DNA of 64,000 bases from Candidatus Omnitrophota bacterium (GTDB lineage Bacteria > Omnitrophota > Gorgyraeia > Zapsychrales > Aceulaceae), in contig JAQUUP010000001.1 of assembly GCA_028693815.1 (NCBI GenBank), positions 8,433 through 72,432 of the forward strand, read 5' to 3'. This document shows, piece by piece, positions 38,532 through 64,000 of this stretch. The position numbers were made by a program, and so were the translations under genes. The first letter of the stretch is position 1. Each line of letters begins with the position of its first letter. The notes below the pieces were generated by a model that was given only the letters and a program-made list of their open reading frames with translations, did no database searches and was not told where the DNA came from.

Positions 38532-38560
38532 GATATTTTCCTCCGTCAATATAAGTTGTT

Positions 38561-39823
38561 TTATTGTGTTGTAAAAATCTGAAAACCTGTATAAGATTCC
38601 ATTCCGTGTTCGCCAATGTCGAGACCTTTAAGCTCTTCTTCTCCGCTAACACGCAAGCCAATCGCGGCGTCAATCAACTTAAAAATAATTCCCATCACGA
38701 CACCAACAAAACCAACCGCGGCAAAAACTCCCAACGCTTGAATACCAAGCTGAGTTACACCGCCTCCATAAAACAACCCATCCGCAGAAACACCTAAAGC
38801 TGCTTTGCCAAAAAGCCCAACCGACAAAGTTCCCCAAATGCCATTAATCCCATGAACAGGAAAAGCGCCAACCGGATCGTCGATGTGAAGCTTGTCTAAA
38901 AGAACAACTCCAAAAACAACTAAAACGCCTCCAACGCTGCCAATCACAATGGCTGCCCAAGGATCAATAAAAGCACAAGGAGCAGTGACCGCAACAAGAC
39001 CAGCTAAAGCGCCATTCATTGCCATAGAAAGATCTGGCTTTCCGAACATTTTCCAGACAACCAACATAGCTATAATGCCTCCAGCGGCGGCTGCTAAATT
39101 CGTGTTAATCGCAACGCGTGCAATTAAACTGCCGTCCCCTATACCTAGCGTCGATCCTGCGTTAAATCCAAACCACCCAAACCATAAAATAAAAACACCT
39201 AAAGAAGCCAGCGGAATGTTGTGACCTGCAATAGCATTAGCGCTTCCATCTGGATTATATTTCCCAATACGCGGTTTTAACATCATGGTTCCGATTAAAG
39301 CAGCTGTTCCACCAACAGCATGAACAACGGTTGATCCAGCAAAATCTAAAAATCCAAAATCAGCTAACCAGCCGCCACCCCAGACCCAATGACCAACAAT
39401 CGGATAAATAAAAGCAGAAATCAAGAACGAATATATCAAATAAGCCTGAAACTTCATACGCTCAGCCATGCCGCCTGCTACGATTGTTGCAGCCGCGCCA
39501 CAAAAAACAGCCTGAAACAACCAAAACGCGTACAAAGGAACATCCGCTCCAGATTCAGCTCCAACTAAAAACCAGCCCTTTAATCCAATAAACCCATTGC
39601 CAACCCCAAACATAATGGCATATCCAAAAATAAAAAATCCTAAAGATGCCATACAAAAATCAAGAAAATTCTTAGTCAAAATGTTACAGGTATTTTTAGC
39701 CCTAATAAAACCAGCCTCAACCATGCCGAATCCTGCCTGCATAAAAAACACTAAAAAAGCCGCGATAAGCACCCACAAGGTATCAATCCCTGTACGCATG
39801 CTTGCTAAATCAATTAGGTTCAT
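38561..39823 (-). CDS. amt: Ammonium transporter
   Basis: 420 aa, 11 TM helices; conserved Amt twin-His region. Confidence 0.9.
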
Positions 39824-47854: not shown

Positions 47855-49012
47855 TCTTTCAATAATCATCGAAACCCCTCCACCACCACCAAAACAAATA
47901 CTCATCAAACCAATCTTTTTATTTTGATCTTTTAAGGCATGTAGCAATGTCACTAGGATTCTCGTCGCTGTCGATCCCAAAGGATGACCCAGAGCGATAT
48001 CTCCACCAAAAATATTAAATTTTGAATCTTTAATATTTAGTCTCTCTTTTGTCAAAACAGCTTGAGAAGCAAAAGATTCTCCGATCTCAAAAAGATCAAT
48101 ATCATCATTCTTTAAATTACATTTTTTAAGACATTCTTCGGCTGCTTTAATTGCACCTAAAAAAGAATTCTTTGGCTCAAGCGCTACAGATGAATATCCT
48201 AAAATTCTTGCCTTAGGGTTAAATCCATATTTCTTCATTGCCTGCTCACCTGCCAACAAAACAAGAGCTGCGGCATCCGCCGCTGATGACGCGTTACCAG
48301 GCGTTACCGTCCCAGATTCTTTAAAAGAACTTGGGAGTCTTGTCATTCTTTCTAAGCTAATATTTTTTCTAATGCGCTCATCCCTTGAAAATATTTCACC
48401 ATTTTCTTTCTTAATTGGAACGATTTCCTCATCAAATTTTCCTTGCTCTTGTGCTTTAAACGCTTTTTGATGACTTTCAAGTGCAAGTTGATCTTGCGCC
48501 TCTCTTGAAACATTAAATTCTTCAGCCAAATTTTCTGCCAACTGACCCATATGAAAATCTGACATCACGCACCAAAGCCCATCTGAAAGAAGACTCTCGA
48601 TTAACTCGTCTTGATTCTTAATAATTTGAGGATTATGCGACGCACTTTCTGTCCCACCAGCTAAAACCAAATCCGCTTGACCGCTCAATATCGCCTGAGC
48701 TCCAACAATAACAGATTCCAATCCTGATCCACAAACACTATTAATCACAAAAGCAGGCGTGCTGATATCCAGCATAGACAATGAAACAGCATGCCGCGCC
48801 ATATTTTGGCCTGTTCCAGCTGAAACAGTGTTACCTAAAATTACTTGATTAATTTTTTCTTTAATTTGAGGATATCTTTTGCAAATTTCGTCAATAACAA
48901 AACTGGCAAGTTGTGCCGCTAAAAAAGTTTTTAGACTTTTATACGTGCTCGCAATAGGAGTGCGCGCACCGTCAATAATATAAATAGGAGTTAAAATTTG
49001 ATTGGAAGCCAT
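47849..49012 (-). CDS. Acetyl-CoA C-acetyltransferase (thiolase)
   Basis: 387 aa; catalytic Cys region NSVCGSGLESV; C-terminal GHPLGSTATR and CFGGGGG. Confidence 0.9.
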   Translation of the reverse strand: MASNQILTPIYIIDGARTPIASTYKSLKTFLAAQLASFVIDEICKRYPQIKEKINQVILGNTVSAGTGQNMARHAVSLSMLDISTPAFVINSVCGSGLESVIVGAQAILSGQADLVLAGGTESASHNPQIIKNQDELIESLLSDGLWCVMSDFHMGQLAENLAEEFNVSREAQDQLALESHQKAFKAQEQGKFDEEIVPIKKENGEIFSRDERIRKNISLERMTRLPSSFKESGTVTPGNASSAADAAALVLLAGEQAMKKYGFNPKARILGYSSVALEPKNSFLGAIKAAEECLKKCNLKNDDIDLFEIGESFASQAVLTKERLNIKDSKFNIFGGDIALGHPLGSTATRILVTLLHALKDQNKKIGLMSICFGGGGGVSMIIERL

Positions 49013-51429: not shown

Positions 51430-51433
51430 TTTT

Positions 51434-52228
51434 TTAGCTCAAATCAATAAATGTTTGTAAAACTTTTTTAACATCACCAGAGTCTCTAACAATATACTCT
51501 GCTTGCGTGTCTCTTAGCTCTGTCGAAACCAAAACACCAAAACCTTTTTCCTTTAACGCTCTAAACGCATCTTCATCTGTAGTATCATCGCCTAAATAAA
51601 CAGGCAAAATATTTTTTTGTTCTTTTTCAAAAACGCTTAAAATCCAATCGACTGCTTTCCCTTTGTGCCAATCAATTTTAGGGCGAATTTCAAAAACTTT
51701 TTTACCACTCGTCTTACGCAACTGAGGATATTCAGACAAAACAGAATCAACTTGATTTTCAAAAACTTCAAAATCCTCATCCTTCACCAAGCGATAATGA
51801 CACGATACAGTATATTTTACATTTTCAATCAAAGCCCCCTCAATATTCTTAACGCGCTCTGCAAGTTTTGCTTGAACCTCGTCAATTACAGGGCGAATTT
51901 TTTGTGCTTCTTCGTTGATCTTGACTTCTCCTTGAGGATCATTAATTTCAAAACCATGGCTTCCAGCATAAAAAATACCACTAATTTTAACCTTGCTTCG
52001 AACATCATCTGTCGCGCGACCCGAAACAATCGCAACCTTCACCTTTTTAGAAAGACTTTCAACAACATTTCTCATTTCATCAGAAATAATTGCTAAATCT
52101 GGAGTCGACACAATTGGAGTAAGCGTTCCATCATAATCTAAAAAAACTACCAAAGTTTTTCCGTCTAAGCGCGCTTTGATCTCATCTAAATTCTCAAAAA
52201 AGTTCTTTAAATTTTGTCCACAATCCAT
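51434..52228 (-). CDS. otsB: Trehalose-6-phosphate phosphatase (HAD-IIB)
   Basis: LVVFLDYDGTLTPIV, IVSGR, YAGSHG, GDDTTDEDAF motifs. Confidence 0.8.
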   Translation of the reverse strand: MDCGQNLKNFFENLDEIKARLDGKTLVVFLDYDGTLTPIVSTPDLAIISDEMRNVVESLSKKVKVAIVSGRATDDVRSKVKISGIFYAGSHGFEINDPQGEVKINEEAQKIRPVIDEVQAKLAERVKNIEGALIENVKYTVSCHYRLVKDEDFEVFENQVDSVLSEYPQLRKTSGKKVFEIRPKIDWHKGKAVDWILSVFEKEQKNILPVYLGDDTTDEDAFRALKEKGFGVLVSTELRDTQAEYIVRDSGDVKKVLQTFIDLS

Positions 52229-52965
52229 TGATCTATCCTCTGTGCATTAACATTCTCAAGATTAGTAACAACAACATCTGCGCCGTTACTTTGAAGTTCT
52301 TTTTCGTTTCCTTCACGTGCTACACCTAAAACAAAAGCAAAGCCTCCATTTTTTCCTGCCTGAACCCCTGAAACTGCATCCTCAACAACAACAGCTCTAT
52401 CGGGAGTGCATCCCACATTCTTACAAGCTGTTACAAAAATATCCCCTTCAGGTTTTCCTTTTAAACCTAATTCAGCTGAAACAACGCCATCAACGCGCGT
52501 TTCAAAAAGATCTTCTAAGCCTGTTTTTTGCAAAATAAGTTGACAATTCTTACTCGAAGAAGCAACGCCAACATGAACACCATTTGCCTTTAGATCCTTT
52601 ATTAAAGCCACAGCAGGATCAAAAACTTCAGCTCCTTTTTCCGCTAAAATATTCTTAAACATAATATTTTTCTTGTTTCCAAGTCCACAAGCTGTTTCCA
52701 TGTCTGGAGCATCAGCCGGATCTCCATAAGGAATATCAATTCCTCGAGATTCTAAAAAGCTCTGAACACCTTTATACCGAGGTTTTCCATCAACAAAAGG
52801 AAGATAATCTTTTTCATGTGTAAATTCCTTAAAAGATTCGCCATCTCTCTGCTCTCTAGATTTAAGATATTCGTCAAACATCTCTTTCCACGAAGCTGCA
52901 TGAGCTAAAGCCGTTTTTGTAATAACACCATCTAAATCAAAAATAACCGCATCATAATTTTTCAT
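52207..52965 (-). CDS. pgmB: Beta-phosphoglucomutase (HAD-IA)
   Basis: AVIFDLDGVITKT; KPEGDIF; VVVEDAVSGVQAGKNGG. Confidence 0.85.
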   Translation of the reverse strand: MKNYDAVIFDLDGVITKTALAHAASWKEMFDEYLKSREQRDGESFKEFTHEKDYLPFVDGKPRYKGVQSFLESRGIDIPYGDPADAPDMETACGLGNKKNIMFKNILAEKGAEVFDPAVALIKDLKANGVHVGVASSSKNCQLILQKTGLEDLFETRVDGVVSAELGLKGKPEGDIFVTACKNVGCTPDRAVVVEDAVSGVQAGKNGGFAFVLGVAREGNEKELQSNGADVVVTNLENVNAQRIDQWIVDKI

Positions 52966-53097: not shown

Positions 53098-53640
53098 TCA
53101 ATATTCTGCAGTCATAACATAATCAGCAAAAACAGATAATGTTTTACCCCCTATTTTTCCATCAGCTTTTAGTCCATTTGCTTCTTGAAACTGCTGAATA
53201 GCTAAAATTGTCTTTGGGCCTAATTTCCCATCTATTTTTCCTGGAGAAAAGCCTTCTTTAATCAAAATTTGCTGAATAAAAGCCACATCAATTTCTCCAT
53301 CAAAAACAAGACCTAGATCTTTAAAGAAATTTAATTCTTTCCACGTTGCCTTATCGACATACCGGTTAACCTTAATCTGGCGGTCTTCTTGAAATCTTGC
53401 AATCGCGTCTCTAACCTTAGGCCCCATTTTTCCATCTATTTTTCCGCAAGAATACCCATTAACCTTTAAAAGTTCTTGAACCTGCTCAACCTGTTCATTG
53501 TACATAAAAGGGATAATCTCTCCAATTAAAGCCTTTTCTTCAGCTGCTTCTCTTTGAATAAGACCATAAATAAAATCACACCCTAAAAAACTTTGAGCAC
53601 ACATGAAAAAGACTAATAAAAATATTAATTTTCTTCTCAC
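53098..53640 (-). CDS. Lipoprotein with two peptidoglycan-binding (PG_binding_1) domains
   Basis: Lipobox FLGC; two repeats of NGYSCGKIDGKMGPKVRDAIARFQ / EGFSPGKIDGKLGPKTILAIQQFQEANGLKADGKIG. Confidence 0.7.
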   Translation of the reverse strand: MRRKLIFLLVFFMCAQSFLGCDFIYGLIQREAAEEKALIGEIIPFMYNEQVEQVQELLKVNGYSCGKIDGKMGPKVRDAIARFQEDRQIKVNRYVDKATWKELNFFKDLGLVFDGEIDVAFIQQILIKEGFSPGKIDGKLGPKTILAIQQFQEANGLKADGKIGGKTLSVFADYVMTAEY

Positions 53641-53654: not shown

Positions 53655-53690
53655 AATAATCGGCTCTTATCGTTAAAAGACAAGAGCCGA
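53655..53690 (-). terminator. Rho-independent terminator downstream of the REC gene (9-bp stem TCGGCTCTT/AAGAGCCGA + U-tract)
   Basis: Minus strand: AGUCGGCUCUU-GUCUUUUAACGAU-AAGAGCCGAUUAUUUUUU. Confidence 0.55.
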
Positions 53691-53711
53691 CTTTATTAAA
53701 TTTTGGATTTC

Positions 53712-54071
53712 TTAAGAAATTAATTTCTCAATAGACTCTAAAATATACTTGAAATCCACTGTCTTAACTGTAAAATCATCTGCCCCGGCCTCTCTAGCTC
53801 TTCTAGCATCTACTGCTTCTAATTTTCCAGTATAAATAATAATTTTTACTTCATCATTATCATCTTTAATTTTTCGACACACATCAAATCCGTTTTCATC
53901 GGGAAGCATAACGTCCAAAATAATGGTACAAGGATTTTCTTTTGCAAAAATTTCTAAACCTTCTTTTGCCGTTGAAGCAACAAAAGTTTCATATCCTGCT
54001 GCCACAAGATTTGCTTTTAATATTTTTTGAATATCTATTTCATCTTCAATAACTAAAATCTTTTTTTTCAT
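53712..54071 (-). CDS. Single-domain response regulator (REC)
   Basis: 119 aa; KILVIEDE...IILDVMLPDENG...YTGK...FTVKTV. Confidence 0.85.
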   Translation of the reverse strand: MKKKILVIEDEIDIQKILKANLVAAGYETFVASTAKEGLEIFAKENPCTIILDVMLPDENGFDVCRKIKDDNDEVKIIIYTGKLEAVDARRAREAGADDFTVKTVDFKYILESIEKLIS

Positions 54072-54080
54072 CCTCTTCTC

Positions 54081-54449
54081 CTAACTTAACATTTTCTTTA
54101 TTTTTGCCAACAACTCATCATAATCAAACGGCTTAAACATATAATCCTGCGCTCCAGCCTCCGCAGCTCTTTCCTTAAAACCTTCAGATGCTGTTGATGC
54201 TGTTAAGAACATAACAGGGATGTCTTTAGAATGCTCATCTGCTTTAATTCTTCTACAGACTTCAAATCCATTCAGCACAGGAAGCGTAATGTCTAAAAGA
54301 ATAAGATCGGGACGATCTTCTGCAATCATGTCCAAGGCCATTTGCCCATTAATAGCTGTTTTAATATCATACCCTTCTTTTTTAAGACGAAAAATAACAA
54401 CCTTTAAAATATCTGGCTCATCATCAACAGCTAAAATTTTCTTAGACAC
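54081..54449 (-). CDS. Single-domain response regulator (REC)
   Basis: 122 aa; KILAVDDEPDI...DLILLDITLPVLNG...LTAS...YMFKPF. Confidence 0.85.
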   Translation of the reverse strand: MSKKILAVDDEPDILKVVIFRLKKEGYDIKTAINGQMALDMIAEDRPDLILLDITLPVLNGFEVCRRIKADEHSKDIPVMFLTASTASEGFKERAAEAGAQDYMFKPFDYDELLAKIKKMLS

Positions 54450-54471
54450 AATGCCCTCCTATCAATCAACC

Positions 54472-57400
54472 TTATCTTTTTCTTCTCTCTTCTATCGGCA
54501 AAAGAAATGAAAAGGCACTTCCTTTTCCGTGTTCGGATTCTACCCAAATCTTTCCTCCATGACCTTCAACAATTTTCTTCGAAATAGCAAGACCAAGCCC
54601 TGTGCTTCCTGTTTTTCTTTCTTTGCCTTTCTTTAGCTGACTAAACGTTTGAAAAAGCCTCTCAAAATCTTCTTCTTTAATTCCTTCACCTTGATCAATA
54701 ACAGAAATCTGAACCGTATTATGTTCCAATGTTGTTTTAATTGTGATCGGCTTGCCCCCTGCATATTTAATAGCATTATTCACTAAATTTGTTACAACTT
54801 GCGTAACACGATCATGATCCATGCTCACCTTTGGAATATTTCCATCTAAATCAAGCTTAAGATCCGATCCCTCTTTTTGAGCAATCGTTTCCATCGTCTG
54901 AACAACTTCTTCAACTAACAAATTAATATCGCTCAGCTCAAAATCAAAAGTCATTTGCTGAGCATCTAACTTTTGAAAATCTAAAACATCGTTAATCAGA
55001 CGAGAGAGTCTCTCTACGTTTCTTTTTGCTACAGATAAAAACTCCGCTTGATCAGGATTCACTTCGCCAGTGACGCCATCGGCAACAATCGAGACACCTT
55101 CTTTAATGGCAGTCAAAGGAGTGCGGAGCTCATGAGACACAACAGAAATAAATTCACTTTTCATCCGCATAGCATCAAGAGCTTTTTCTTCTGCTTTCTT
55201 TCGTGCTGTAATATCTTCTTTTACAGCCAAGAAATATGTTATTTCTCCTTTTTCGTTTCGAATAGGAGAGATCGAGGCAAGCTCCCAATATTCTTCTCCA
55301 CTTTTCTTTTTATTGCAAAATTCCCCTCGCCATTCATTCCCACTTAAAATTGTGCTCCACAATTCTTGATAAACTTCTTTCGGTTGATCTCCTGATTTTA
55401 GAATTCTTGGATTTTGTCCAACAGCTTCCTTTGAAGTGTATCCGGTTAGCTCACAAAATTTTGGATTTACATAAACAATATTGCCTTCAGGATCTGTAAT
55501 CACAACTGTGCTTGGACTCTGCTCAACAGCTCGAGACAATTTAATAAGCTCAATCTCTGTTTCTTTTCTTTTTGTAATATTTTCCATTAAGCCAATATTA
55601 GAAAAAATGCGACCTTCCTTGTCAAAGCTTAAAAATCCTCGATCATAAAACCACAAATATGTTCCATCTTTACATCGAAAACGATATTCACAACTAAAAT
55701 TTTTCTTTTCATCAATAGCCTGTTTAAGCGATTTTTCTACATTTAAAACATCTTCTGGATGACACTTGCTAAGCCATTGTTCAGTATTGCTCCCCATTTC
55801 TTCAAGAGTATACCCTAAGGTTTCTAAAAAATTTCCACCCCAAACAATCTTATCTTCTAAGAAATAATGCTCATAAACAATCTGACTAACTGCGCTCACA
55901 AGTGCTGTATTTTTCGCTAAAGCCTCCGCTATTCTTAACTCACCTTTTTTTCTTTCAGTAATGTCCTCAAAGCTTTCGATGCCCCCTACAACATTACCCT
56001 GAGAATCCAAAAGCAAATCAGCATTCTTTGAAATAATTCTAATCTCGCCATCTTTTCTTTTAATATGACATTCTTTGTTTGTAAGCGGTTTTTCAATAGA
56101 ATCTGAAAACAAACCACAAAGATCCCTGCACGGATAATCAGCAAACAATGAACATTGTTTTCCAATAACATCTCCTGACAAATACCCAGTCACCTCTTCC
56201 GCTCTCTTGTTCCATCGGACAATCTTTTTGTTTACATCAACTATAAAAATAGCACTTGGAGAAAGCTCAAAAATTCGCTCAGCCGATTCTTTGGCGGCAA
56301 TAATTTCCCTCTGAAACTCCTCAAGCTTTTCTGTCTTATCAGAAAGTTCTCCATAAAGAGCCTTAATCGCATCATTTGTTTTCTCAAGACCCCACGCTTT
56401 TTCTTTTAAAGCCTCTTGAGTTTCTCTCAAAACTTCTTGCGCTTTTTTTTCTTGCGTTATGTCACGTGCAATCGTCGCAATCTCAACAATCTTTCCCTGT
56501 TTATTTTTAATAGGTGAGATATTTAATGAAACATTTATTGATGTTCCGTCTTTTCTTTGTCTCTTTGTCTCATAATTTCTAATTGTTTCTCCCTGCTTAA
56601 TCCGCTTAAGAATATCTAAAATCTCACCTTGCTGTTCTTTTGAAACAAGCATTGTTATCGACTTTCCGATAACATCCTTAGCAGAATATCCATATATTCT
56701 TTCTGCTTCTTTATTCCAGCTTAAAATCTTGCCATCTAAACTCTTTCCGATAATCGCTTCGCTAGAAGATTCTACAATCGCATAAAAACGAAGCAAATCT
56801 TCCGCAGATTTGTTAATCAAGCTAACAACAACAAAAAAAACTGTTACTAAAATAACAAGGAACAAGGAAAAAATAATGCCAAAAAATGAATACGTCTGCA
56901 CTTGCTGCGAAGAAATAACCATCGCCACAGACCACCCAGAAACATTAATTGGATGGCTAAAGAAAAGAAATGGTTTATCTTGAAACTCAATGGGCTCGCC
57001 GCTATTAACTTTCTTCTTTAAAATCGATTCAAAAGGTCCTGGTCCAAATTGTTTTGTAGAAACAAGCATTTCTTTTTGATCTGAATTAAGCGGCCATAAA
57101 GAGTTGAGAACTTTTTTAGGACTACTTGAAAGAAAAACAATTCCATTGGGATCAATTAGAAAACATAAATCAAATTTTGAAAAATCTCTTGCTAAAGAAT
57201 CGATTTCTCTTTTAATCACAACGATACCTACAATATTGCCAAGCTCATCTTTAGCAGGAGCTGAAAAATAAATTCCTCGCTTTTTCGAAGTTACTCCATA
57301 AGCAAAATAACGGCCCAGATCACCTTTTTTTGCACTTTCGAAATAAGGTCGAAACTTATAATTCTTTCCAACAAAACTATCTAAACTCTCATGATTTGAG

Positions 57401-57759
57401 GAAGCAAGTGTTGTTCCATCCAAATCTAAAACATAACAAACTGTATCTCTTAAAGCATCTGCATAACGATCTAAAACCAGGTTGATTCTTGCAAAAGTTT
57501 CAAAATCATTTGAATAAAAAATATCTTTGATCTCATCGCTGCCCGCTAAAGCCTTGACAATTCTTTCAACAGTGTCTATTTCTCGATTAACGCTACTGCT
57601 TAAAGCAAACAAAGCAGCCTCTGATTCTCGAGAAATCTCCTTTTGCGCATAATAAGATAGCTGCATTGTTAAAATGCCACCAGCAACAACAATAACAATC
57701 AAAGAAATAATATAAACAATAAAAAACTTTGATCTTAAAAAACTTTTCTTAAAACTCAT
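54472..57759 (-). CDS. Sensor histidine kinase: TM - periplasmic dCache_1 - TM - 4x PAS - HisKA - HATPase_c
   Basis: 1095 aa; Cache signature [38 protein letters not shown]...[14 protein letters not shown] between two TM helices; H-box [15 protein letters not shown]; G-box [19 protein letters not shown]. Confidence 0.85.
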
Positions 57760-57856
57760 TCTTTTTCTCTTTAGTTGTAACTTTTTTATTTATACTTCTT
57801 TTATTTATTTCTAAATCAAACAAAAAATATCTATTTTATTGTCAAACAAATAACTT

Positions 57857-60019
57857 TTATCGTCGTCTTAAAAGCATTTTAACTCTTGCCAGCAATTTTT
57901 CGTCATCAAATGGTTTACCCAAATAGTCATCAGCCCCAGCATCTAATCCTTCTAGCTCATCTTCTTTAGTTGTCTTTGCCGTTAACATCAAAATAGGAAT
58001 AGCTGCTGTTTCTAGCTCAGCGCGTATTCTCCGTGTCGCTATAATTCCATCCATCACAGGCATCATAACATCCATAATAATTAAATCTGGTTTTTTCTGA
58101 TGCGCTATGCGCACGCCCTCAGCACCATTTTCGGCCTCTAAAATACTATATCCGGCAGCATTAAGACGCATCCCTAAAATTTCTCTAATATCTGGCTCAT
58201 CATCAACAATCAAAATACAAAACTTCTTATTAATTTCTTGGCGAAGTTGAGAAGCTATCTTGATACTCTCTGGATCCACTTCTTCTATTTTATTCTCTTT
58301 AGCTTCATTCTTCATAGATTCTTCATGCGGAAGCTCTGAAACACGTTCAATTTCCTCTATGGTTGTTACGCCTTCAATTACTTTTTGCGCGCCGGCTTCA
58401 GCCAAAGTTCTTAGGCCATTGTCTTTTGCTTCTTTCCAAATAATGCTTTCAGGAGCCTTCTCTGATATCAGCTCTTTTATTTTTTCATTAATTTCCAAGA
58501 TTTCAAAAATAGCTGTTCGTCCAAGAAACCCCGTATATCCACAATATTCACAACCCTTTCCTCGAGACAACTTTTGAATTTTATATTTCTGAATAAAAGC
58601 ACCAAATCTTTCTTGCGCTTCTGCATCGGGAACATATTGTTCTTGACATTTAGTGCACACCAACCGAATAAGCCTTTGCGCTACAATTAAAATAACTGAT
58701 GATCCAATCAAGTATGGCTCAAGGCCGATATCATAAAGACGAATAATCGTTGCTAAAGCATTGTTGGTGTGCAACGTTGAAAAAACAAGATGTCCTGTCA
58801 AAGAAGCCCGAAACGCAATTTCAGCAGTTTCTTGATCTCGAATTTCTCCAACTAAAATCACATTAGGATCTTGACGCAAAATACTTTTTAATCCTGTTGC
58901 AAAATTAACATTTTTAGCCGGATTAACCTGAATTTGATTGATTCCCTGTATTAAGTATTCAACAGGATCTTCAATCGTAACAATATTTTTTGTCTCATTT
59001 TTAATCTCATTAAGAGCGGCATAAAGAGTAGATGTCTTTCCGCTTCCTGTTGGCCCTGTAATCAAAATCATTCCTTGCGGCCTAGAAATCACGTCTTTAA
59101 ATAATTTTAGATCTCTATCTCCGAATCCCATATTGTCTAAATCAATCTGTGCCTTTTTTTGATCTAAAAGACGAATAACAATCTTTTCTCCATGGAATGT
59201 CGGAATTGTTGAAACACGCAAATCAACTTTACGCCCTTCAATCAAAATGCTACTTCTGCCATCCTGAGGCTTTCTTGTCTCTGCGATATCCAGTTCTGTT
59301 AAAATCTTAATTCGAACAACTAAAGACGCATGAAGCCTTTTTGGAATTTTCATAATATTTTTTAAATATCCGTCAACTCGATAGCGCACCTCTACAACTT
59401 TTTCATACGGCTCAACATGAACATCGCTCGCCCTTGCCTTAACTGCATCTGAAACAATTAAATTACAAAGCCGAACAATAGGAGATTCCTTGCCAGAAAA
59501 ATATTCATCTTCAAACATTTCCTTTTCTGACTCTTTCTGAATAAGCTCAACCTTAATATCCTCAGTCATATTTTTAATAAGATCATATGTTACATCATCT
59601 AAAAGATAATATTTCTCAATATGTTTTGTGATATCGGTTTTCTTTGCCAAAATAGGCTTAACCCCTATGCCGCAAATCGCCCCAATATCTTCTAGAGCAA
59701 CAAAATCCTGAGCATCGCACATCGCAAGCAACAATTTTCCATCTTCAATTCGAACGGGAAAAACGCCATAACGCTTTGCTTTCTCATAGGGAAGTTTTTT
59801 AAGAGCTTCTTGATCAATCTCTTCTTTAGCCAAAATACAAACGGGGAGACCAAAAACTTCAGATGCAACATTAATCAAATCATCCTCTTTGATAAAATTC
59901 ATGTCCACCAAAAGCTCAGAAATTGATTTCTTGGCCCCAACTTGCTTTATTTTGGCATCTTGAATCTGCTCTCTTGTAACAAGCCCTTTTTCAACTAAAG
60001 TATCCAATAATTTACTCAT
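57857..60019 (-). CDS. Type IV pilus / T2SS assembly ATPase (PilB/GspE family) with N-terminal MshEN/GspE_N domain and a C-terminal REC receiver domain
   Basis: 720 aa; Walker A ITGPTGSGKTST; Asp/His boxes; tetracysteine CTKC...CEYC; residues about 600-720: ILIVDDEPDIREILGMRL...DLIIMDVMMPVMDG...LTAKT...YLGKPF is a complete REC. Confidence 0.8.
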   Translation of the reverse strand: MSKLLDTLVEKGLVTREQIQDAKIKQVGAKKSISELLVDMNFIKEDDLINVASEVFGLPVCILAKEEIDQEALKKLPYEKAKRYGVFPVRIEDGKLLLAMCDAQDFVALEDIGAICGIGVKPILAKKTDITKHIEKYYLLDDVTYDLIKNMTEDIKVELIQKESEKEMFEDEYFSGKESPIVRLCNLIVSDAVKARASDVHVEPYEKVVEVRYRVDGYLKNIMKIPKRLHASLVVRIKILTELDIAETRKPQDGRSSILIEGRKVDLRVSTIPTFHGEKIVIRLLDQKKAQIDLDNMGFGDRDLKLFKDVISRPQGMILITGPTGSGKTSTLYAALNEIKNETKNIVTIEDPVEYLIQGINQIQVNPAKNVNFATGLKSILRQDPNVILVGEIRDQETAEIAFRASLTGHLVFSTLHTNNALATIIRLYDIGLEPYLIGSSVILIVAQRLIRLVCTKCQEQYVPDAEAQERFGAFIQKYKIQKLSRGKGCEYCGYTGFLGRTAIFEILEINEKIKELISEKAPESIIWKEAKDNGLRTLAEAGAQKVIEGVTTIEEIERVSELPHEESMKNEAKENKIEEVDPESIKIASQLRQEINKKFCILIVDDEPDIREILGMRLNAAGYSILEAENGAEGVRIAHQKKPDLIIMDVMMPVMDGIIATRRIRAELETAAIPILMLTAKTTKEDELEGLDAGADDYLGKPFDDEKLLARVKMLLRRR

Positions 60020-60021
60020 TT

Positions 60022-60387
60022 TTAACGCAGCATCACTTTCTCTATCATTCTTATCAAAGCATCAGAATCATATGGTTTTTCTAAGTAGCCATCCGGCTTT
60101 TCTTGCAAAACCAGCTTTTTTTGCTCATCATCTTTCATGGCTGTTGAAATTATCACAGGAATATCTTTTGTATATAAAGACAATTTTAAATTCTTTAACG
60201 TACTAAGCCCTCCTCCTCCAGGCAACTTTAAGTCAAGAACGATCACATCAGGTTTTTCGTTATGCGCAAGTTCAACTGCACGAAAACAATCAAAAGCTGC
60301 CATCACCTGATGACCGTGTTCAATTAAACGCCTATTCATAACAGTCAAAAAATCAAGATCGTCTTCAACAAAAAGAATTTTAGACAT
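60022..60387 (-). CDS. Single-domain response regulator (REC)
   Basis: 121 aa; KILFVEDD...DVIVLDLKLPGGGG...STAM...YLEKPY. Confidence 0.85.
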   Translation of the reverse strand: MSKILFVEDDLDFLTVMNRRLIEHGHQVMAAFDCFRAVELAHNEKPDVIVLDLKLPGGGGLSTLKNLKLSLYTKDIPVIISTAMKDDEQKKLVLQEKPDGYLEKPYDSDALIRMIEKVMLR

Positions 60388-60473
60388 AGCATTCCTCCGT
60401 GTTTCATTTTACCTTGAAAAATGATGTTTTCAATTTATAATTATTCTAATACTAATATATATAATTAAGAAAA

Positions 60474-61964
60474 CTAGCGATTATTTGCAGAACAAAGATT
60501 GGCAAGTTCTTTTTGAACTGAAGAATTTAAAGAAGAAGCTTTGACACGCCATTCCCAATTGCTTGTAATCGTTGAAGGCTGGTTCATGCGAGCAGACTCA
60601 TCTAAACCTAAAATATCCTGTAGTGGAAGAATAACAGTATCCGCTATAGAATTCATTGCTAATTTGACAAAAATCAAGGCAATATTATTTTCTGTTGGCT
60701 CTTGGCCTACAATTTTATTAATCTGAACTTTAGCTTCTTCAGTGGCTTCCCGGCGAAACCAGCCTTTAGTTGTATTATTATCGTGCGTTCCCGTGTAAAC
60801 AATACAATTTTTAATATGGTTTTGGGGCAAGTAAGGGTTGTCCTCTTTGCCATCAAAAGCAAACTGCAGAATTTTCATTCCTGGAAAACGATAACGCTTA
60901 ATGACTTCTTTAACATCTGCTGTAATGATGCCCAAATCTTCAGCAATAATAGGAAACTCTTTAAAATAATCTAAAAGCTCATCAAAAAAATTATATACAT
61001 TAACTTTAGCCCACTTGCCGTTAATCGCCGTCTGCTCACCTTTCGGAATTTCCCAAAAATCCACAAAACCCCTAAAATGATCAATGCGCACAATATCAAA
61101 ACAATCAAAGTTATATTTTAACCGTTTTTTCCACCAATCATAGCCTGAAGATTGCAAAACATCCCATCGGTAAACAGGGTTGCCCCAGAGCTGTCCTGTC
61201 TCGCTAAAATAATCCGGCGGAACTCCTGCTAAAAATTCGCATTCTCCATTTTCGTCTAATTTAAAAATTTCCTTATTCGCCCACGCATCGGCACTATCGT
61301 GCTGGACATAAATAGGAGCATCCCCGATAACTTTAATACCTTTCTTGTTACAATATCCCTTTAAATCAAACCATTGAGAATAAAAAAGATATTGAAAAAA
61401 TTTTTCTCGCAAAATAAATTCGTGCAACTCCTCTCGATACGCTTCCATGGCAGCTGGCTCTCTTTTTCGGATATTTTCCGGCCATTGACACCAAGAGGCA
61501 CCTTCAAATTTTTCTTTCAACGCAACAAACAAACTATAATCATCAAGCCAAACCTTATTCTTCTCATAAAAACTTTTAAAACTTTTATCTGAAGATATTG
61601 TTTTTTTTACATTATGAAAGGCTCGATACAAAACATCTACCTTATGCATAGCAACCGCCACATAATCGACACGGTCTCCAGAAAACTTTACTTCTTTTAA
61701 ATCATTTTGCGTTAAAAACCCATCTCTAATTAAGAATTCTGGACTAATCAAAAGAACATTACCGGCAAAAGCCGAACAGCTGCTATATGGAGAATTAGAA
61801 AGAGCGATGTCCGTCGGATTTAAAGGCAAAACTTGCCAATACGATTGTTTGCTATTTTTTAAGAAATCAGCAAACTGATACGCTCCAGAACCAAAATCGC
61901 CAATTCCATGTGGTGACGGTAAAGATGTAATATGAAGCAAAACTCCGCTTTTCCGTTTAGACAT
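60474..61964 (-). CDS. malQ: 4-alpha-glucanotransferase (amylomaltase, GH77)
   Basis: 496 aa; SGVLLHITSLPSPHGIGDFG start, IGDAPIYV..DSADAW region, TGTHDN. Confidence 0.9.
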   Translation of the reverse strand: MSKRKSGVLLHITSLPSPHGIGDFGSGAYQFADFLKNSKQSYWQVLPLNPTDIALSNSPYSSCSAFAGNVLLISPEFLIRDGFLTQNDLKEVKFSGDRVDYVAVAMHKVDVLYRAFHNVKKTISSDKSFKSFYEKNKVWLDDYSLFVALKEKFEGASWCQWPENIRKREPAAMEAYREELHEFILREKFFQYLFYSQWFDLKGYCNKKGIKVIGDAPIYVQHDSADAWANKEIFKLDENGECEFLAGVPPDYFSETGQLWGNPVYRWDVLQSSGYDWWKKRLKYNFDCFDIVRIDHFRGFVDFWEIPKGEQTAINGKWAKVNVYNFFDELLDYFKEFPIIAEDLGIITADVKEVIKRYRFPGMKILQFAFDGKEDNPYLPQNHIKNCIVYTGTHDNNTTKGWFRREATEEAKVQINKIVGQEPTENNIALIFVKLAMNSIADTVILPLQDILGLDESARMNQPSTITSNWEWRVKASSLNSSVQKELANLCSANNR

Positions 61965-61981
61965 TTTTCAATTCCATTATT

Positions 61982-64000
61982 TTATACTGTTTCAACTTGA
62001 AGAAATTCCCCTAAAAGCTCAAAAGCCTCAACCCATCTTTGGGATCGAGGATCTCTTTTTTCAGCTTGTCCTTTTTTATCTTTGAGCAATTTGCGATTTA
62101 GAATAAAATAAATATTCTGCGCTTTCCACAAATCTAACTTATAATTTAAAATACTTAGACTTTCAACGACAGAAATAAGCGTTTCAATCAAATTAATATC
62201 ATCTGGATTTTTAATCAATTCTTTCATCAGCTCATTAACTTTTCGTCCAGCAATAAAACAAATTGTTTGCTTATCACGGCTAAAAGACCATCTCATAATT
62301 TCCCAAACAAGCATTCTCAATCGCTTTAAGTCAATAGGATCAGATTGAATCACATCGCACAAATCTCTATTTAAAACAAATTCTGCAATTGTTGCAAGCG
62401 CCTTAGGCAACGTTACTTGAAGCTCCTTTTGAACTTGCATCAAAGGATGATGCTTTTCATAAATCTCCCTAAACGATTCTTCGATTTCATCCATCGTCGT
62501 TTTCAAAACTTCATCTAATATTTTTTGCTGCTCTTCTTTAAAAAGATGTTCTAAAGAATAATTTTCTGGGCCATAATATTTATCTATCAAGCGATTTGCT
62601 TCTGGAATTTGTTTTGTAATAAATGCCTCAACAATTTCTTTTTGTGCTTGGCTATAATCTCCTTCTAAAAGTTCCTTAACACCGCGAATAATATTGTGAT
62701 TTCCCAAATGAAATCCTGCGAAAAAGATAGGCGTTTGTTCAAGCGTTATATCAGACTGCACTGTCCCGCATCCCATCGAAAGCTTAAGCCGTTCGTCCTC
62801 TTTTTGATATGAGCGCTCTGTTCGAATTGTATAACAATAAATTTTTGTTTCCTTTGGATACTTTTCAAACAAAGACGAAACCGCGTAATGAGCTCCAACT
62901 CTAAAAAGATCAACAACAAACGGTTGCACCTGTTGCAGATAAATATTTCTTGCATCGCCAATTTCTTTAACATTACTTTTTATTTTTTCTAAAAGACCCA
63001 AGAATGATTCTTCTATTTTTATGCCAGAGACTTCTTTTATTAACTGAATTACACGCGCCGCATATTTTAAAACTTGCGTTGGCTCAATGCCAGAAATTTC
63101 ATCAAAAAACCATCCACAGCTTGTATACATCAGCTGAGCGTTTCGCTGCATTTCTAAAAGCTTCAATATTTTAACCTTATCATTTTCAGATAAAGATCTT
63201 TGAATATTTTTGGCAAAAAAGCTCTCAACAGCCTTCTTATCTCGATTTAAAATTACCGAAATATACTGATTTCGTAGCGCCCAAACATCTTCGACAAACA
63301 GCCCCATCTCTTTTTCATAAACTTTAATGCCTTCATCTCTTAGCCAATCAAGCGAAAAACGTAAACCCTCACGCCATTTCTGATTCCATTTTGGATTTGT
63401 GCCTATACAACAACCACAATCTGAGCGCCATCGCTCTATCCCATGAGCACAGCTCCAAGAAGTATTTTCATGAATCTCAACCTCTTCTTGAGGAGGAAAC
63501 TTCTCTAGAAATTCTCCATAAATTGTTATTTTAGCTAAATTATTCTTTTCAATAGTCCGCAAACAATAAGCAAGAGCCATGTCTGCAAATTTATGATGAT
63601 GTCCGTATGTTTCTCCATCCGTTGCAATATGAACAATTTGATTTTCTTCTGTTTTAATATCAAACGCTCTCAAAAGTCGCCTGGAAAACTCTTCTCCATC
63701 ATTTAAAAGTCCTTCAAAAGCAACACCTTGCGCAATAGGCCCATCATAAAAGAAAATAACAATATTTTTTCCTGAAGGAAGCCTGCATAAATACGGTTTC
63801 TTAGGATCGATTTTTTGACCTTCTACAGAAATCCATTTTTTGTCCAATATCTTCTTCACACTCTTCGCTTGATGAGGCGCTAAAATAGTAAATAAAATCC
63901 CATATTCTGCTAAAATTTCTAGTGTTACAATATCGACAGCAGTTTCCGCAAGCCACATGCCTTCGGGTTTTCGCTTAAAACGATATTCAAAATCTTTAAT
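61982..64000 (-). CDS. Glycoside hydrolase family 57 enzyme (alpha-glucan branching / amylopullulanase type), C-terminal about 670 aa; N-terminus beyond the window
   Basis: GH57 regions III (EGMWLAETAV) and IV (ATDGETYGHH) are present; the frame is open to the window edge at 64000, so regions I/II must lie upstream of the window. Confidence 0.7.
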   Translation of the reverse strand: MKDFEYRFKRKPEGMWLAETAVDIVTLEILAEYGILFTILAPHQAKSVKKILDKKWISVEGQKIDPKKPYLCRLPSGKNIVIFFYDGPIAQGVAFEGLLNDGEEFSRRLLRAFDIKTEENQIVHIATDGETYGHHHKFADMALAYCLRTIEKNNLAKITIYGEFLEKFPPQEEVEIHENTSWSCAHGIERWRSDCGCCIGTNPKWNQKWREGLRFSLDWLRDEGIKVYEKEMGLFVEDVWALRNQYISVILNRDKKAVESFFAKNIQRSLSENDKVKILKLLEMQRNAQLMYTSCGWFFDEISGIEPTQVLKYAARVIQLIKEVSGIKIEESFLGLLEKIKSNVKEIGDARNIYLQQVQPFVVDLFRVGAHYAVSSLFEKYPKETKIYCYTIRTERSYQKEDERLKLSMGCGTVQSDITLEQTPIFFAGFHLGNHNIIRGVKELLEGDYSQAQKEIVEAFITKQIPEANRLIDKYYGPENYSLEHLFKEEQQKILDEVLKTTMDEIEESFREIYEKHHPLMQVQKELQVTLPKALATIAEFVLNRDLCDVIQSDPIDLKRLRMLVWEIMRWSFSRDKQTICFIAGRKVNELMKELIKNPDDINLIETLISVVESLSILNYKLDLWKAQNIYFILNRKLLKDKKGQAEKRDPRSQRWVEAFELLGEFLQVETV

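What the first reader, a model, noticed from the sequence alone, without database searches (positions are those of the whole stretch)
53712..60387. Pilus motor ATPase fused to a receiver domain inside a histidine-kinase / multi-CheY cluster
The PilB/GspE-family ATPase (57857-60019) carries an N-terminal MshEN/GspE_N domain, which in characterised proteins binds c-di-GMP. It also carries a full C-terminal REC domain with a linker of about 50 aa. This architecture is uncommon for T4P/T2SS extension ATPases. It sits between a 1095-aa dCache-4xPAS histidine kinase and three separate single-domain REC proteins (53712, 54081, 60022). The layout suggests a phosphorelay that gates pilus extension directly at the motor, potentially integrated with c-di-GMP. 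The rest of the pilus machinery is not in this window.
Basis: partly seen in the sequence, partly recalled or inferred. Interest (0 to 1): 0.65.

Follow-up and report, generated by a model that had tools for sequence, protein, structure and literature searches.

The report
Pilus motor ATPase with built-in receiver
An uncultured Omnitrophota bacterium encodes a type IV pilus assembly ATPase with a phosphorylation-sensing receiver domain fused to its C-terminus, inside a sensor-kinase operon; the fusion is conserved across the phylum and suggests that a kinase signal can act directly on the pilus motor.

Summary
Gene 57857-60019 (-) encodes a 720-aa MshEN + T2SSE + Response_reg protein. It lies between a single-domain REC gene (2-nt spacer upstream) and a dCache-4xPAS histidine kinase followed by two more REC genes. 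A promoter-like site and a strong terminator-like hairpin bracket the five genes.

- **Not a one-off.** The source is an Omnitrophota MAG close to Ca. Aceula. All 120 best database clusters (52-100% identity) carry the same fusion. Every ATPase motif and the REC D-D-D-T-K residues are invariant or nearly so.
- **Conserved context.** In 68 non-redundant related loci, the upstream gene is a single REC in 41 of 65. A histidine kinase lies within four genes in 28 of 41 complete fusions.
- **Link to pili.** In one nested subclade the fusion protein sits directly in front of pilC and pilin genes. That cluster is collinear with ordinary Omnitrophota pilus clusters.
- **Independent parallel.** A Mariprofundaceae PilB-REC heads a CheW-MCP-CheA operon.
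- **c-di-GMP idea not supported.** Both Arg and both Gly of the MshEN motif are replaced across the family.
- **Unresolved.** No pilus genes lie in this window, and whether the genome has a second PilB is not known.

I rate this a new variant of a known kind, of moderate interest.

The parts
60406..60433 (-). Promoter-like site (TTGAAA-16-TAAAAT) in the 86-nt gap between the GH77 gene and the first REC gene
   Evidence: This is a consensus match only. The total number of such sites in the region (22) is not above the shuffles (23.4 +/- 4.9).
60022..60387 (-). REC_up: a 121-aa single-domain receiver, apparently translationally coupled to the ATPase gene (TAA, 2 nt, ATG)
   Evidence: Pfam Response_reg 72 bits. 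Junction sequence. A single REC is the adjacent upstream gene in 41 of 65 related loci, and it best matches this REC in 28 of those 41. Forty orthologues keep the acidic pair, the phospho-acceptor Asp, Thr and Lys-Pro, and gaps to the PilB start are mostly -4 to +12 nt.
57857..60019 (-). PilB-REC: 720-aa type IV filament assembly ATPase with a fused C-terminal receiver
   Evidence: Pfam MshEN + T2SSE + Response_reg. Best solved relatives are Geobacter, Myxococcus and Thermus PilB/PilF over residues 2-561 (E 1e-136). 100% identical to P0001 from a Ca. Omnitrophica MAG. AlphaFold2 mean pLDDT 83.7, pTM 0.73.
59855..60019 (-). Residues 1-55: MshEN_N four-helix bundle with a degenerate c-di-GMP motif (KLL and SIS in place of RLG and RLG)
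   Evidence: NF053729 scores 37.0 against a cut-off of 38.
58343..59491 (-). Residues 177-559: ATPase core with Walker A GPTGSGKT (322-329), Walker B/catalytic Glu (E392), His box (H410, H417) and a tetracysteine Zn site (C455, C458, C490, C493)
   Evidence: K328, E392, H417 and the four Cys are conserved in 120 of 120 relatives; H410 in 119 of 120.
58217..58336 (-). Residues 562-601: flexible, poorly conserved linker of variable length
   Evidence: Column conservation 0.12-0.24 with many gaps. AlphaFold2 pLDDT below 50 for residues 565-581 and 590-597.
57878..58216 (-). Residues 602-714: receiver domain; phospho-acceptor D650 is encoded at 58070-58072
   Evidence: Pfam 109 bits. D606, D607, D650 and T680 conserved 120/120, K702 119/120. 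Best NCBIfam receiver matches are PhoB, RpaB, PleD and MtrA, three of them OmpR/PhoB-type.
54472..57759 (-). Sensor histidine kinase, 1095 aa: TM, periplasmic dCache_1, TM, four PAS, HisKA, HATPase_c
   Evidence: The H-box SHELRTP and the two hydrophobic segments flanking dCache are read directly from the translation. Orthologous kinases follow PilB-REC in L002 and L003.
54081..54449 (-). REC_d1: 122-aa single-domain receiver; closest paralogue of the fused REC (44% identity)
53712..54071 (-). REC_d2: 119-aa single-domain receiver (Lys followed by Thr instead of the usual Pro)
   Evidence: sequence.
53658..53692 (-). Terminator-like hairpin (14-bp stem followed by a T run) directly after the last REC gene
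   Evidence: Eight such sites in the region against 3.8 +/- 1.8 in shuffles; this one has the longest stem.
53098..53640 (-). Possible accessory gene: 180-aa protein with two PG_binding_1 domains and an N-terminal lipoprotein-like signal. It follows the operon only in the Aceula-type subclade.
   Evidence: Pfam. Conserved at the same position in L002, L003, L094 and L155. Its membership of the system is an inference.

Best explanation
The five genes 60387-53712 (-) form one operon. It couples a membrane sensor kinase directly to a type IV filament assembly ATPase, with no transcription factor in between.

Proposed mechanism:
1. The kinase senses a periplasmic ligand through dCache and cytoplasmic cues through four PAS domains.
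2. It autophosphorylates and transfers the phosphoryl group to D650 of the receiver tethered by a roughly 40-aa flexible linker to the C-terminus of the PilB-type ATPase.
3. Phosphorylation changes the ATPase's activity, its hexamer state or its docking onto the PilC/PilM platform, and so switches filament extension on or off.
4. The three single-domain receivers compete for the same phosphoryl groups, acting as sinks or antagonists, or bind the motor themselves. REC_up is the best candidate for motor binding, because it is conserved and apparently translationally coupled to the ATPase. This would resemble PilH/PixH and PilG/PixG.
5. The ancestral c-di-GMP input at the N-terminus has probably been lost and replaced by this phosphorylation input.

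Shown: domain content, intact catalytic residues, operon conservation, and a family link to pilC and pilin genes.
Inferred: phosphotransfer partners, the direction and sign of regulation, and the identity of the filament system served in this genome.
For: 1. Intact enzyme and intact receiver. Walker A, Walker B/Glu, His box, the Zn tetracysteine and the REC residues D-D-D-T-K are invariant or nearly invariant in 120 clusters at 52-100% identity.
2. The operon is conserved.
- REC / PilB-REC / HK / REC(s) recurs in L002-L006.
- In 68 non-redundant metagenome loci there are 41 complete fusions. The upstream gene is a single REC in 41 of 65. A kinase lies within four genes in 28 of 41. Extra single RECs lie nearby in 30 of 41.
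3. The ATPase is the only output domain in the window operon.
4. The family is tied to filament genes.
- A subclade nested within it has PilB-REC followed by PilC (T2SSF, 195 bits), a pilin (N_methyl + T2SSG) and three pilin-like genes, then a PAS or CHASE kinase and a REC.
- This cluster is collinear with the PilB / PilC / pilin / minor pilin / PilMN / PilO clusters of other Omnitrophota.
5. Those ordinary clusters are themselves preceded by kinases and four or five tandem single RECs. Receiver control of PilB therefore looks like a phylum-wide theme.
6. Independent parallel: a Mariprofundaceae PilB-REC is followed by CheW, an MCP and CheA.
7. Precedent in trans: phosphorylated PixG binds PilB1, and PixH acts as an antagonist or sink (PMC11181946). 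PilG and PilH influence PilB localisation (PMC11656802).
8. Closest solved structures are T4aP PilB proteins, matched along the whole N-terminus and ATPase.
Against: - No pilC, pilM/N/O/Q, pilT, prepilin peptidase or pilin gene lies in the 64-kb window or within 10 kb of the fusion gene in L002-L006.
- The protein falls below NCBI's equivalog cut-offs for both PilB (609.9 vs 675.65) and GspE (578.8 vs 630.25).
- Other Omnitrophota have a separate REC-less PilB (42% identical) inside their pilus clusters. The window protein may therefore be a second, accessory motor.
- No phosphotransfer, ATPase or binding data exist for any member, and I found no publication on this architecture.
- Which of the four receivers the kinase serves is unknown.
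Confidence: 0.6

Rival explanations
1. The same regulatory logic applies, but the ATPase drives a type II secretion-like pseudopilus that exports proteins rather than an extended pilus. The kinase would then gate secretion, for example of hydrolases used on hosts or polymers.
For: - In the PilC-linked subclade the gene order ATPase / platform / major (pseudo)pilin / minor pilins matches gspE-F-G-H-I-J-K order (established knowledge of T2SS operons).
- The best NCBIfam hit of the platform protein is GspF (339.9 bits vs 265 for PilC), and the best hit of the pilin is GspG.
- The window protein scores nearly as well on GspE (578.8) as on PilB (609.9).
- The FG-GAP protein and the flanking glycoside hydrolases are compatible with secretion but do not demonstrate it.
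Against: - All of those scores are below the curated cut-offs.
- The N-terminal region matches PilB/PilF/MshE far better than XpsE/GspE (E 1e-15 vs 2e-3), and full-length PDB matches are T4aP PilBs.
- The collinear Omnitrophota clusters carry PilM_2/PilN and PilO genes rather than GspL/M.
- No secretin was seen in any locus.
- Seymour et al. classify these clusters as T4aP (PMC10066038).
Confidence: 0.2
2. Information flows the other way. The fused REC is mainly a phosphate sink, or a reporter whose accessibility depends on the ATPase's conformational state. Motor activity would then tune the two-component pathway and the other receivers, rather than the pathway tuning the motor.
For: - Four receivers share one kinase in the operon, a layout typical of sink or branched designs.
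- The 2024 review of PilB regulation mentions motor-dependent signalling pathways (PMC11656802).
- L006 has a REC-HTH_8 protein in the same cluster, so some relatives do have a transcriptional output.
Against: - In the window the other three REC proteins have no output domain, so the pathway would have no effector.
- The fused REC is among the most conserved parts of the protein (0.76-0.80 column conservation), which fits an allosteric role on its own ATPase.
Confidence: 0.1
3. The ATPase has been recruited to a non-filament task linked to the flanking glycogen and trehalose genes (GH57, GH77, beta-phosphoglucomutase-like HAD, trehalose phosphatase, GH65).
For: Glucan genes flank the operon in the window. 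They also occur near it in L002, L003, L004 (glycogen phosphorylase) and L006 (GH57, GlgC).
Against: - Only 7 of 41 non-redundant fusion loci have any such gene, and these fall in a few subclades. This looks like inherited synteny.
- Other loci have a V-ATPase operon, sigma-70/primase genes or pilus genes instead.
- No known role exists for a PilB-type ATPase in glucan metabolism.
Confidence: 0.03
4. The fusion is an assembly or gene-calling artefact, or a decaying pseudo-enzyme.
For: A few related contigs show the gene split into two ORFs (L093, L094, L096, L155).
Against: - The same uninterrupted 695-764-aa architecture occurs in 120 independent clusters from NCBI, JGI, ENA and Logan assemblies and in 41 non-redundant metagenome loci.
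- All catalytic residues are invariant.
Confidence: 0.01

Closest known systems
Pil-Chp (PilG/PilH with ChpA) of Pseudomonas aeruginosa and Tax1 (PixG/PixH with PixL) of Synechocystis
   Same: A kinase phosphorylates CheY-like receivers that act on the pilus extension ATPase PilB. A second single-domain receiver antagonises the first or drains phosphate (PMC11181946; PMC11656802). The window operon has the same cast: a kinase, a receiver acting on PilB, and extra single-domain receivers.
   Different: Here the acting receiver is covalently fused to PilB. The kinase is a HisKA-type membrane sensor, not CheA, and there is no MCP, CheW or PATAN domain. A CheA-linked version of the fusion does exist in Mariprofundaceae.
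REC-MshEN-T2SSE architecture (Geobacter metallireducens Gmet_3473), catalogued in Wang et al. 2016, Supplementary Table 4
   Same: A receiver domain fused to a PilB/GspE-type ATPase. It is listed as a domain architecture and has not been characterised (PMC5013675).
   Different: In that architecture the receiver is N-terminal, ahead of MshEN. Here it is C-terminal, behind the ATPase on a flexible linker. The C-terminal arrangement is not in that table, although MshEN-T2SSE-cNMPbind is.
c-di-GMP-binding MshE/PilB ATPases (Vibrio cholerae MshE, PDB 5HTL; Myxococcus PilB)
   Same: The same N-terminal MshEN fold (5htl E 2e-11) and the same ATPase core.
   Different: The ligand-contacting Arg and Gly of both 24-residue motifs are replaced throughout the family. 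The curated motif model scores about half the control value.
Ordinary Omnitrophota type IV pilus clusters (L170, L171)
   Same: The same phylum and the same theme: kinases and runs of single-domain receivers sit directly upstream of the PilB gene. The gene order is collinear with the PilB-REC / PilC / pilin subclade.
   Different: Their PilB is 538-539 aa, has no fused receiver and is only 42% identical to the window protein.

Membership tests
GspE/PilB-type secretion ATPase (Pfam T2SSE, PF00437) | Profile match above the curated cut-off | tested here: met
   447.6 bits against a cut-off of 24.9, covering profile positions 4-370 of 370.
GspE/PilB-type secretion ATPase (Pfam T2SSE, PF00437) | Walker A, Walker B/catalytic Glu, His box, and the tetracysteine Zn site typical of assembly ATPases | tested here: met
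   GPTGSGKT, E392, H410/H417 and C455/C458/C490/C493 are present and invariant or nearly so in 120 relatives.
Type IVa pilus assembly ATPase PilB (NCBIfam TIGR02538, equivalog) | Score at or above the equivalog cut-off | tested here: not met
   609.9 bits against a cut-off of 675.65. It is still the best-scoring model, matched end to end over residues 4-561.
Type IVa pilus assembly ATPase PilB (NCBIfam TIGR02538, equivalog) | Genomic association with pilC, pilins and pilM/N/O/Q | tested here: inconclusive
   Absent from the window. Present for orthologues in one nested subclade, as PilC plus pilins. The rest of this genome was not available.
Type II secretion ATPase GspE (NCBIfam TIGR02533, equivalog) | Score at or above the equivalog cut-off | tested here: not met
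   578.8 bits against a cut-off of 630.25, and the match starts only at residue 74.
Two-component response regulator receiver (Pfam Response_reg, PF00072) | Profile match above the cut-off | tested here: met
   109 bits against 30.2, residues 602-714, profile positions 1-111 of 111.
Two-component response regulator receiver (Pfam Response_reg, PF00072) | Acidic pair, phospho-acceptor Asp, Thr/Ser and Lys (D-D-D-T-K) | tested here: met
   D606, D607, D650, T680 and K702; conserved in 119-120 of 120 relatives.
Two-component response regulator receiver (Pfam Response_reg, PF00072) | Phosphorylation by a cognate histidine kinase | not testable with these tools
   An adjacent HisKA/HATPase_c kinase is present and conserved, but phosphotransfer needs an experiment.
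MshEN c-di-GMP receptor domain | MshEN fold (Pfam PF05157; similarity to 5HTL) | tested here: met
   70.5 bits against 23.1. 5htl E 2.3e-11 over residues 3-138.
MshEN c-di-GMP receptor domain | Tandem 24-residue motif RLGxx(L/V/I)(L/V/I)xxG(L/V/I)(L/V/I)xxxxLxxxLxxQ with its Arg, Gly, Leu and Gln contacts | tested here: not met
   The window has KLL and SIS at the two RLG positions, K23 and A52 at the Leu positions, and V55 at the second Gln. Gly at motif position 3 occurs in 0 of 120 relatives in either motif. The register was confirmed.
MshEN c-di-GMP receptor domain | NCBIfam NF053729 c-di-GMP motif model at or above its cut-off | tested here: inconclusive
   37.0 bits against a cut-off of 38. 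Relatives score 33.3-38.4. REC-less control PilBs score 70.6 and 73.2. Binding itself needs ITC or DRaCALA.
Chemosensory (Pil-Chp / Tax-type) control of type IV pili | CheA-type kinase with CheW and an MCP | tested here: not met
   The kinase is HisKA-type and no CheA/CheW/MCP domain is present. The system may work like Pil-Chp but is not a member.
REC-MshEN-T2SSE architecture (Gmet_3473 type) | Receiver at the N-terminus of the ATPase | tested here: not met
   The receiver is C-terminal, residues 602-714. Compare the table.

The most novel reading that the evidence does not exclude
The fused receiver is an in-cis replacement for c-di-GMP control.
- Phosphorylation would make the PhoB-like receivers of neighbouring protomers pair up on their flexible tethers. 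That pairing would clamp or release the ATPase hexamer.
- The conserved, co-translated upstream REC would act as a decoy partner.
- The operon would then be a complete, transcription-free sensor-to-motor circuit that lets ultra-small, host-dependent Omnitrophota fire pili within seconds of sensing a host cue.
- It would also be a natural 'Rosetta stone' showing that CheY-like regulators such as PilG act by direct contact with PilB.
Probability: 0.25. Interest if true: 0.7.

Novelty: new variant of a known kind. Interest (0 to 1): 0.5.

Why it matters
How chemosensory and two-component receivers control the pilus extension motor is still open. A 2024 review notes that no direct PilG/PilH-PilB interaction has been reported (PMC11656802).

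A large natural family in which the receiver is welded to PilB argues that direct receiver-to-motor control is an old and widespread solution. This family sits next to HisKA kinases, and in another phylum next to CheA.

It also offers a tractable single-polypeptide system for biochemistry and structure work: ATPase activity with and without BeF3-, and cryo-EM of the hexamer.

For Omnitrophota, whose pili are proposed to mediate attachment to hosts or prey (PMC10066038), it points to signal-gated pilus deployment. It also suggests a swap of c-di-GMP input for phosphorylation input.

The caveats are that the organisms are uncultured and nothing has been tested experimentally.

Tried and rejected
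1. **Genome-contig scan with the single protein.** The tool chose query-specific 8-mers plus a generic REC 8-mer. Only one true orthologue came back (L010, Ca. Aceula lacicola). The scan was wasted for taxonomic spread.
2. **Glycogen/trehalose link.** It looked recurrent in the first five loci but holds in only 7 of 41 non-redundant loci. Rejected as subclade synteny.
3. **c-di-GMP input.** Motif residues are lost and the curated model is borderline. Not supported, though weak or atypical binding is not excluded.
4. **Search for a canonical Omnitrophota PilB through the REC-less outgroup L167.** It turned out to be Nitrospirota, so it was uninformative.
5. **PilM/N/O/Q next to the PilC-linked PilB-REC loci.** None found. 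Only PilC and pilin-like genes are there.
6. **Whether the window genome holds a second PilB or any PilC.** Could not be determined. Contig lengths of PilC and PilB-REC clusters gave no shared contig outside the linked subclade.
7. **AlphaFold2 monomer.** It gave domain confidence and a disordered linker only. No inter-domain or hexamer information is returned, so REC docking was not assessed and no fold search was run.
8. **Literature searches for a described C-terminal REC fusion to PilB.** These found only trans-acting regulators and the catalogue in Wang 2016. The library does not cover subscription journals, so earlier mention elsewhere cannot be excluded.
9. **Supplement of the Ace Lake paper.** Not held as text.

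Full report
**1. What is in the sequence**

All genes are on the minus strand:
- REC, 60022-60387 (121 aa)
- ATPase-REC, 57857-60019 (720 aa)
- histidine kinase, 54472-57759 (1095 aa)
- REC, 54081-54449 (122 aa)
- REC, 53712-54071 (119 aa)

Pfam results:
- The 720-aa protein has MshEN (residues 56-140, 70.5 bits), T2SSE (177-559, 447.6 bits) and Response_reg (602-714, 109 bits against a cut-off of 30.2).
- The kinase has dCache_1, four PAS stretches, HisKA and HATPase_c.
- Each small protein is a single Response_reg domain.

The first REC gene ends TAA, two bases before the ATG of the ATPase gene. A promoter-like hexamer pair lies in the gap upstream of that REC (60433-60406). A 14-bp-stem terminator-like hairpin (53692-53658) follows the last REC. 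Both are consensus matches only, but they bracket the five genes as one unit.

The linker between ATPase and REC is about 40 aa. It is poorly conserved and rich in indels, and AlphaFold2 models it with low confidence (pLDDT below 50 for 565-581 and 590-597). The three folded parts are modelled with higher confidence (most 10-residue blocks above 80; the last 40 residues of the REC 68-80), with mean pLDDT 83.7 and pTM 0.73.

**2. Source organism and surroundings**

The protein is 100% identical to one from a 'Candidatus Omnitrophica bacterium' MAG (190,578-bp contig). It is 87% identical to that of Ca. Aceula lacicola. Aceula belongs to Omnitrophota, class Velamenicoccia, order Zapsychrales, family Aceulaceae, and comes from Ace Lake, Antarctica (supplement of PMC10066038).

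Pfam scans of the 47 ORFs judged likely genes gave the following; they were chosen by eye from the lists of ORFs of at least 110-120 aa, leaving out ORFs that overlap them:
- Glucan genes (GH57/DUF3536, GH77) lie upstream of the operon.
- A PG_binding_1 protein follows it, then a HAD hydrolase, trehalose phosphatase, a GH65 phosphorylase and a thiolase.
- Further away lie nitrogen-assimilation and nucleotide-synthesis genes.
- No pilC, pilM/N/O/Q, pilT or prepilin peptidase gene is present, and no prepilin signal motif occurs in any frame.

**3. The fusion is a conserved family**

- All 120 best clusters (52-100% identity, 664-764 aa) have MshEN + T2SSE + Response_reg.
- Nearly all named members are Omnitrophota. 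One, Ca. Ancaeobacter aquaticus, belongs to Ca. Auribacterota (PMC9324843).
- Among these relatives Walker A Lys, the Walker B Glu, His417 of the His box and the four Zn-site Cys are invariant; His410 is kept in 119 of 120. So are REC D606, D607, D650 and T680, and K702 is kept in 119 of 120. Both the ATPase and the receiver are therefore under purifying selection as working domains.
- A search of 1.84 billion cluster representatives with residues 400-720 found many further clusters at 36-46% identity carrying an ATPase C-terminal domain followed by a REC.
- My domain labelling of the pooled sequences (166 in all) gave 56 PilB_N-T2SSE-REC and 29 T2SSE-REC, some of them fragments.
- One such cluster is from Mariprofundaceae.

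**4. Neighbourhoods**

Five divergent orthologues (53-87% identity) keep the core [REC] / PilB-REC / kinase(s) / REC(s).

A metagenome scan seeded with the family-specific N-terminal motif (A1) gave 80 loci. I called ORFs and labelled them with phmmer using the window's domains. Among 68 non-redundant loci:
- 41 have a complete fusion and 19 are cut by a contig end.
- Only three, which are distant (30-32% N-terminal identity), are complete PilBs without a REC. One of these was later shown to be Nitrospirota.
- The gene directly upstream is a single-domain REC in 41 of 65 loci. It best matches the window's upstream REC in 28 of those 41.
- Its 40 orthologues keep all phosphorylation residues, and the gap to the PilB start is mostly -4 to +12 nt.
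- A kinase lies within four genes in 28 of 41 fusions, and further single RECs in 30 of 41.
- Glucan genes occur in only 7 of 41. I treat the glycogen/trehalose flanks as local synteny.

**5. Link to filament machinery**

In five non-redundant loci (a sixth, L118, duplicates L137) PilB-REC is immediately followed by a T2SSF platform protein (195 bits). In most of them a pilin (N_methyl + T2SSG) and conserved small genes with prepilin-like N-termini follow.

In L121 and L172 these are followed by a PAS or CHASE kinase and a REC, all in one string.

On a rough neighbour-joining tree of the N-terminus plus ATPase, these loci form one subclade nested inside the PilB-REC family.

Two ordinary Omnitrophota pilus clusters were found through the platform protein. 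Their layout is:
- kinases and four or five tandem single RECs
- a REC-less PilB (538-539 aa, 42% identical to the window protein)
- PilC, a pilin and minor pilins
- a PilM/PilN fusion and PilO

The PilB-REC subclade cluster is gene-for-gene homologous to this over PilC and the pilins. Two conclusions follow:
- The PilB-REC family belongs to type IV filament motors.
- Placing receivers next to, or onto, PilB is a recurrent Omnitrophota design.

Outside the phylum, the Mariprofundaceae PilB-REC heads a CheW / MCP / CheA(Hpt-HATPase-CheW-REC) operon. Another PilB-REC is followed by STAS and PAS/HATPase_c_2 proteins. A third has no adjacent kinase.

**6. Pilus or secretion**

- The whole N-terminus plus ATPase aligns best with T4aP PilB/PilF structures (E 1e-136 to 1e-128). 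GspE matches only from residue 165.
- The N-terminal 150 aa match PilB/PilF/MshE at E 1e-29 to 1e-11, against 2e-3 for XpsE.
- NCBIfam ranks PilB (609.9) above GspE (578.8), both below their cut-offs.
- In the linked subclade the platform and pilin score best on GspF and GspG, again below cut-off.

I call the protein a PilB-type type IV filament assembly ATPase. A T2SS-like role remains a live rival.

**7. c-di-GMP**

[quoted passage not shown] Arg, Gly, Leu and Gln make the contacts, and changes such as G11V, R38G, G40L and Q61V abolish binding in XpsE (PMC5013675).
- The window has K3-L4-L5 and S32-I33-S34 at the two RLG positions. It has K23 and A52 at the Leu positions and V55 at the second Gln.
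- In 120 relatives, motif position 3 is never Gly in either motif, and position 1 is never Arg. In motif II position 1 is Pro in 112.
- The hydrophobic scaffold is kept.
- HMMER alignments to Geobacter and Myxococcus PilB (RLG/RIG) and to MshE 5HTL confirm the register.
- NCBI's curated c-di-GMP-motif model (cut-off 38) scores 37.0 for the window and 33.3-38.4 for four relatives. Two REC-less PilBs score 70.6 and 73.2.

The canonical site is therefore most likely lost. Weak or atypical binding is not excluded.

A FIST / GAF-kinase / REC-GGDEF cluster lies elsewhere in the window. Its signature reads GGDDF, so it is probably not an active cyclase.

**8. Mechanism proposed**

*Shown:*
- an intact kinase (H-box SHELRTP, HATPase_c)
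- an intact ATPase
- four intact receivers only 24-44% identical to one another
- a conserved operon
- no DNA-binding output

*Inferred:*
- The kinase phosphorylates D650.
- The phosphorylated receiver, on its flexible tether, alters ATPase activity, hexamer state or docking.
- The single RECs act as sinks, antagonists or co-regulators. REC_up is the likeliest direct partner of the motor.

The receiver's best matches include the OmpR/PhoB-type receivers PhoB, RpaB and MtrA. D697, D698 and R712 in its alpha4-beta5-alpha5 region are invariant. From general knowledge of that family, phosphorylation-driven pairing of receivers is plausible. I did not test it.

Precedent in trans comes from two systems:
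- Phosphorylated PixG binds PilB1, while PixH counteracts it (PMC11181946).
- PilG and PilH affect PilB polarity, though no direct contact has been reported (PMC11656802).

**9. Comparison with what is known, and novelty**

- Wang et al. 2016 list REC-MshEN-T2SSE (Gmet_3473), GAF-MshEN-T2SSE and MshEN-T2SSE-cNMPbind as architectures. They do not list MshEN-T2SSE-REC.
- The 2024 review of PilB regulation does not mention a fused receiver.
- The Omnitrophota papers I could read do not mention it either.
- Public annotation names these proteins only generically.
- My literature searches found no characterisation, within a library that lacks most subscription journals.

I rate it a new variant of a known kind. 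The components and the idea of receiver control of PilB are known. New here are the C-terminal in-cis arrangement, its phylum-wide conservation, its HisKA-kinase operon and the apparent replacement of the c-di-GMP site.

**10. Limits**

- I could not see the rest of this genome. Whether PilB-REC is the sole assembly ATPase or a second one beside a cluster-encoded PilB is therefore open.
- The neighbourhood census rests on my own ORF calls and phmmer labels and may undercount kinases.
- The tree is a quick distance tree.
- No step of the signalling path has experimental support.

**Scores:** interest 0.5; confidence in the main explanation 0.6.

Noticed in passing
window 12512-16253 (+): A second signalling cluster: FIST protein, GAF histidine kinase and REC-GGDEF. 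The GGDEF signature reads GGDDF and the Pfam match is partial, so it may be an inactive cyclase or a receptor.
   Followed up: partly
window 53098-53640 (-): A 180-aa protein with a lipoprotein-like signal (LFLGC lipobox by eye) and two PG_binding_1 domains lies directly downstream of the operon. It is conserved at that position in L002, L003, L094 and L155. It might anchor an envelope machine to peptidoglycan, but it follows a terminator-like hairpin.
   Followed up: partly
window 60474-63958 and 47849-52965 (-): The signalling operon is inserted between glucan genes (GH57/DUF3536, GH77) and maltose/trehalose genes (beta-PGM-like HAD, trehalose phosphatase, GH65 phosphorylase). Glycogen genes also flank orthologues in L003, L004 and L006, but in only 7 of 41 loci overall.
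   Followed up: yes
L007 10001-16807: A Mariprofundaceae (Zetaproteobacteria) PilB-REC (734 aa) is followed by CheW, an MCP, a CheA with its own REC and a cNMP-binding protein. This is a chemosensory operon whose response regulator appears to be fused to the pilus motor.
   Followed up: partly
L170 1-16149 and L171 1243-16292: Ordinary Omnitrophota pilus clusters (PilB, PilC, pilins, PilM/N fusion, PilO) are preceded by several kinases and four or five tandem single-domain receiver genes. This is an unusually receiver-rich pilus locus.
   Followed up: partly
L172 7038-17913 (also L121, L146): One string of genes combines REC, PilB-REC, PilC, a pilin, three pilin-like genes, a CHASE/PAS kinase and a REC. 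No PilM/N/O or secretin lies within 10 kb.
   Followed up: partly
L005 1617-9558: In Ca. Gygaella a complete V/A-type ATPase operon lies directly upstream of REC / PilB-REC. Seymour et al. report atypical F-type ATPases next to Omnitrophota pilus clusters. Whether the two observations are related was not examined.
   Followed up: no
window 9082-11447 (-): Three consecutive HSP20/alpha-crystallin genes followed by a DnaJ-domain protein form a compact chaperone cluster.
   Followed up: no
window 16262-20137 (-): Three ORFs of 165, 241 and 529 aa have no Pfam match at E <= 1e-4.
   Followed up: no
window 43810-45060 (-) and 26416-39823 (-): A GAF-GAF-ANTAR RNA-binding regulator lies near an ammonium transporter, GS-III, GOGAT, NAD synthase and CPSase genes. 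This is a large nitrogen-assimilation block, and the GAF-ANTAR gene is also conserved near the operon in L003 and L170.
   Followed up: no
L131 12291-13859: A cNMP-binding protein and a PilT-like ATPase (357 aa) lie about 6 kb downstream of a PilB-REC. A pilin-like protein carrying a 3-keto-disaccharide hydrolase (LamG-like) domain lies in between.
   Followed up: no
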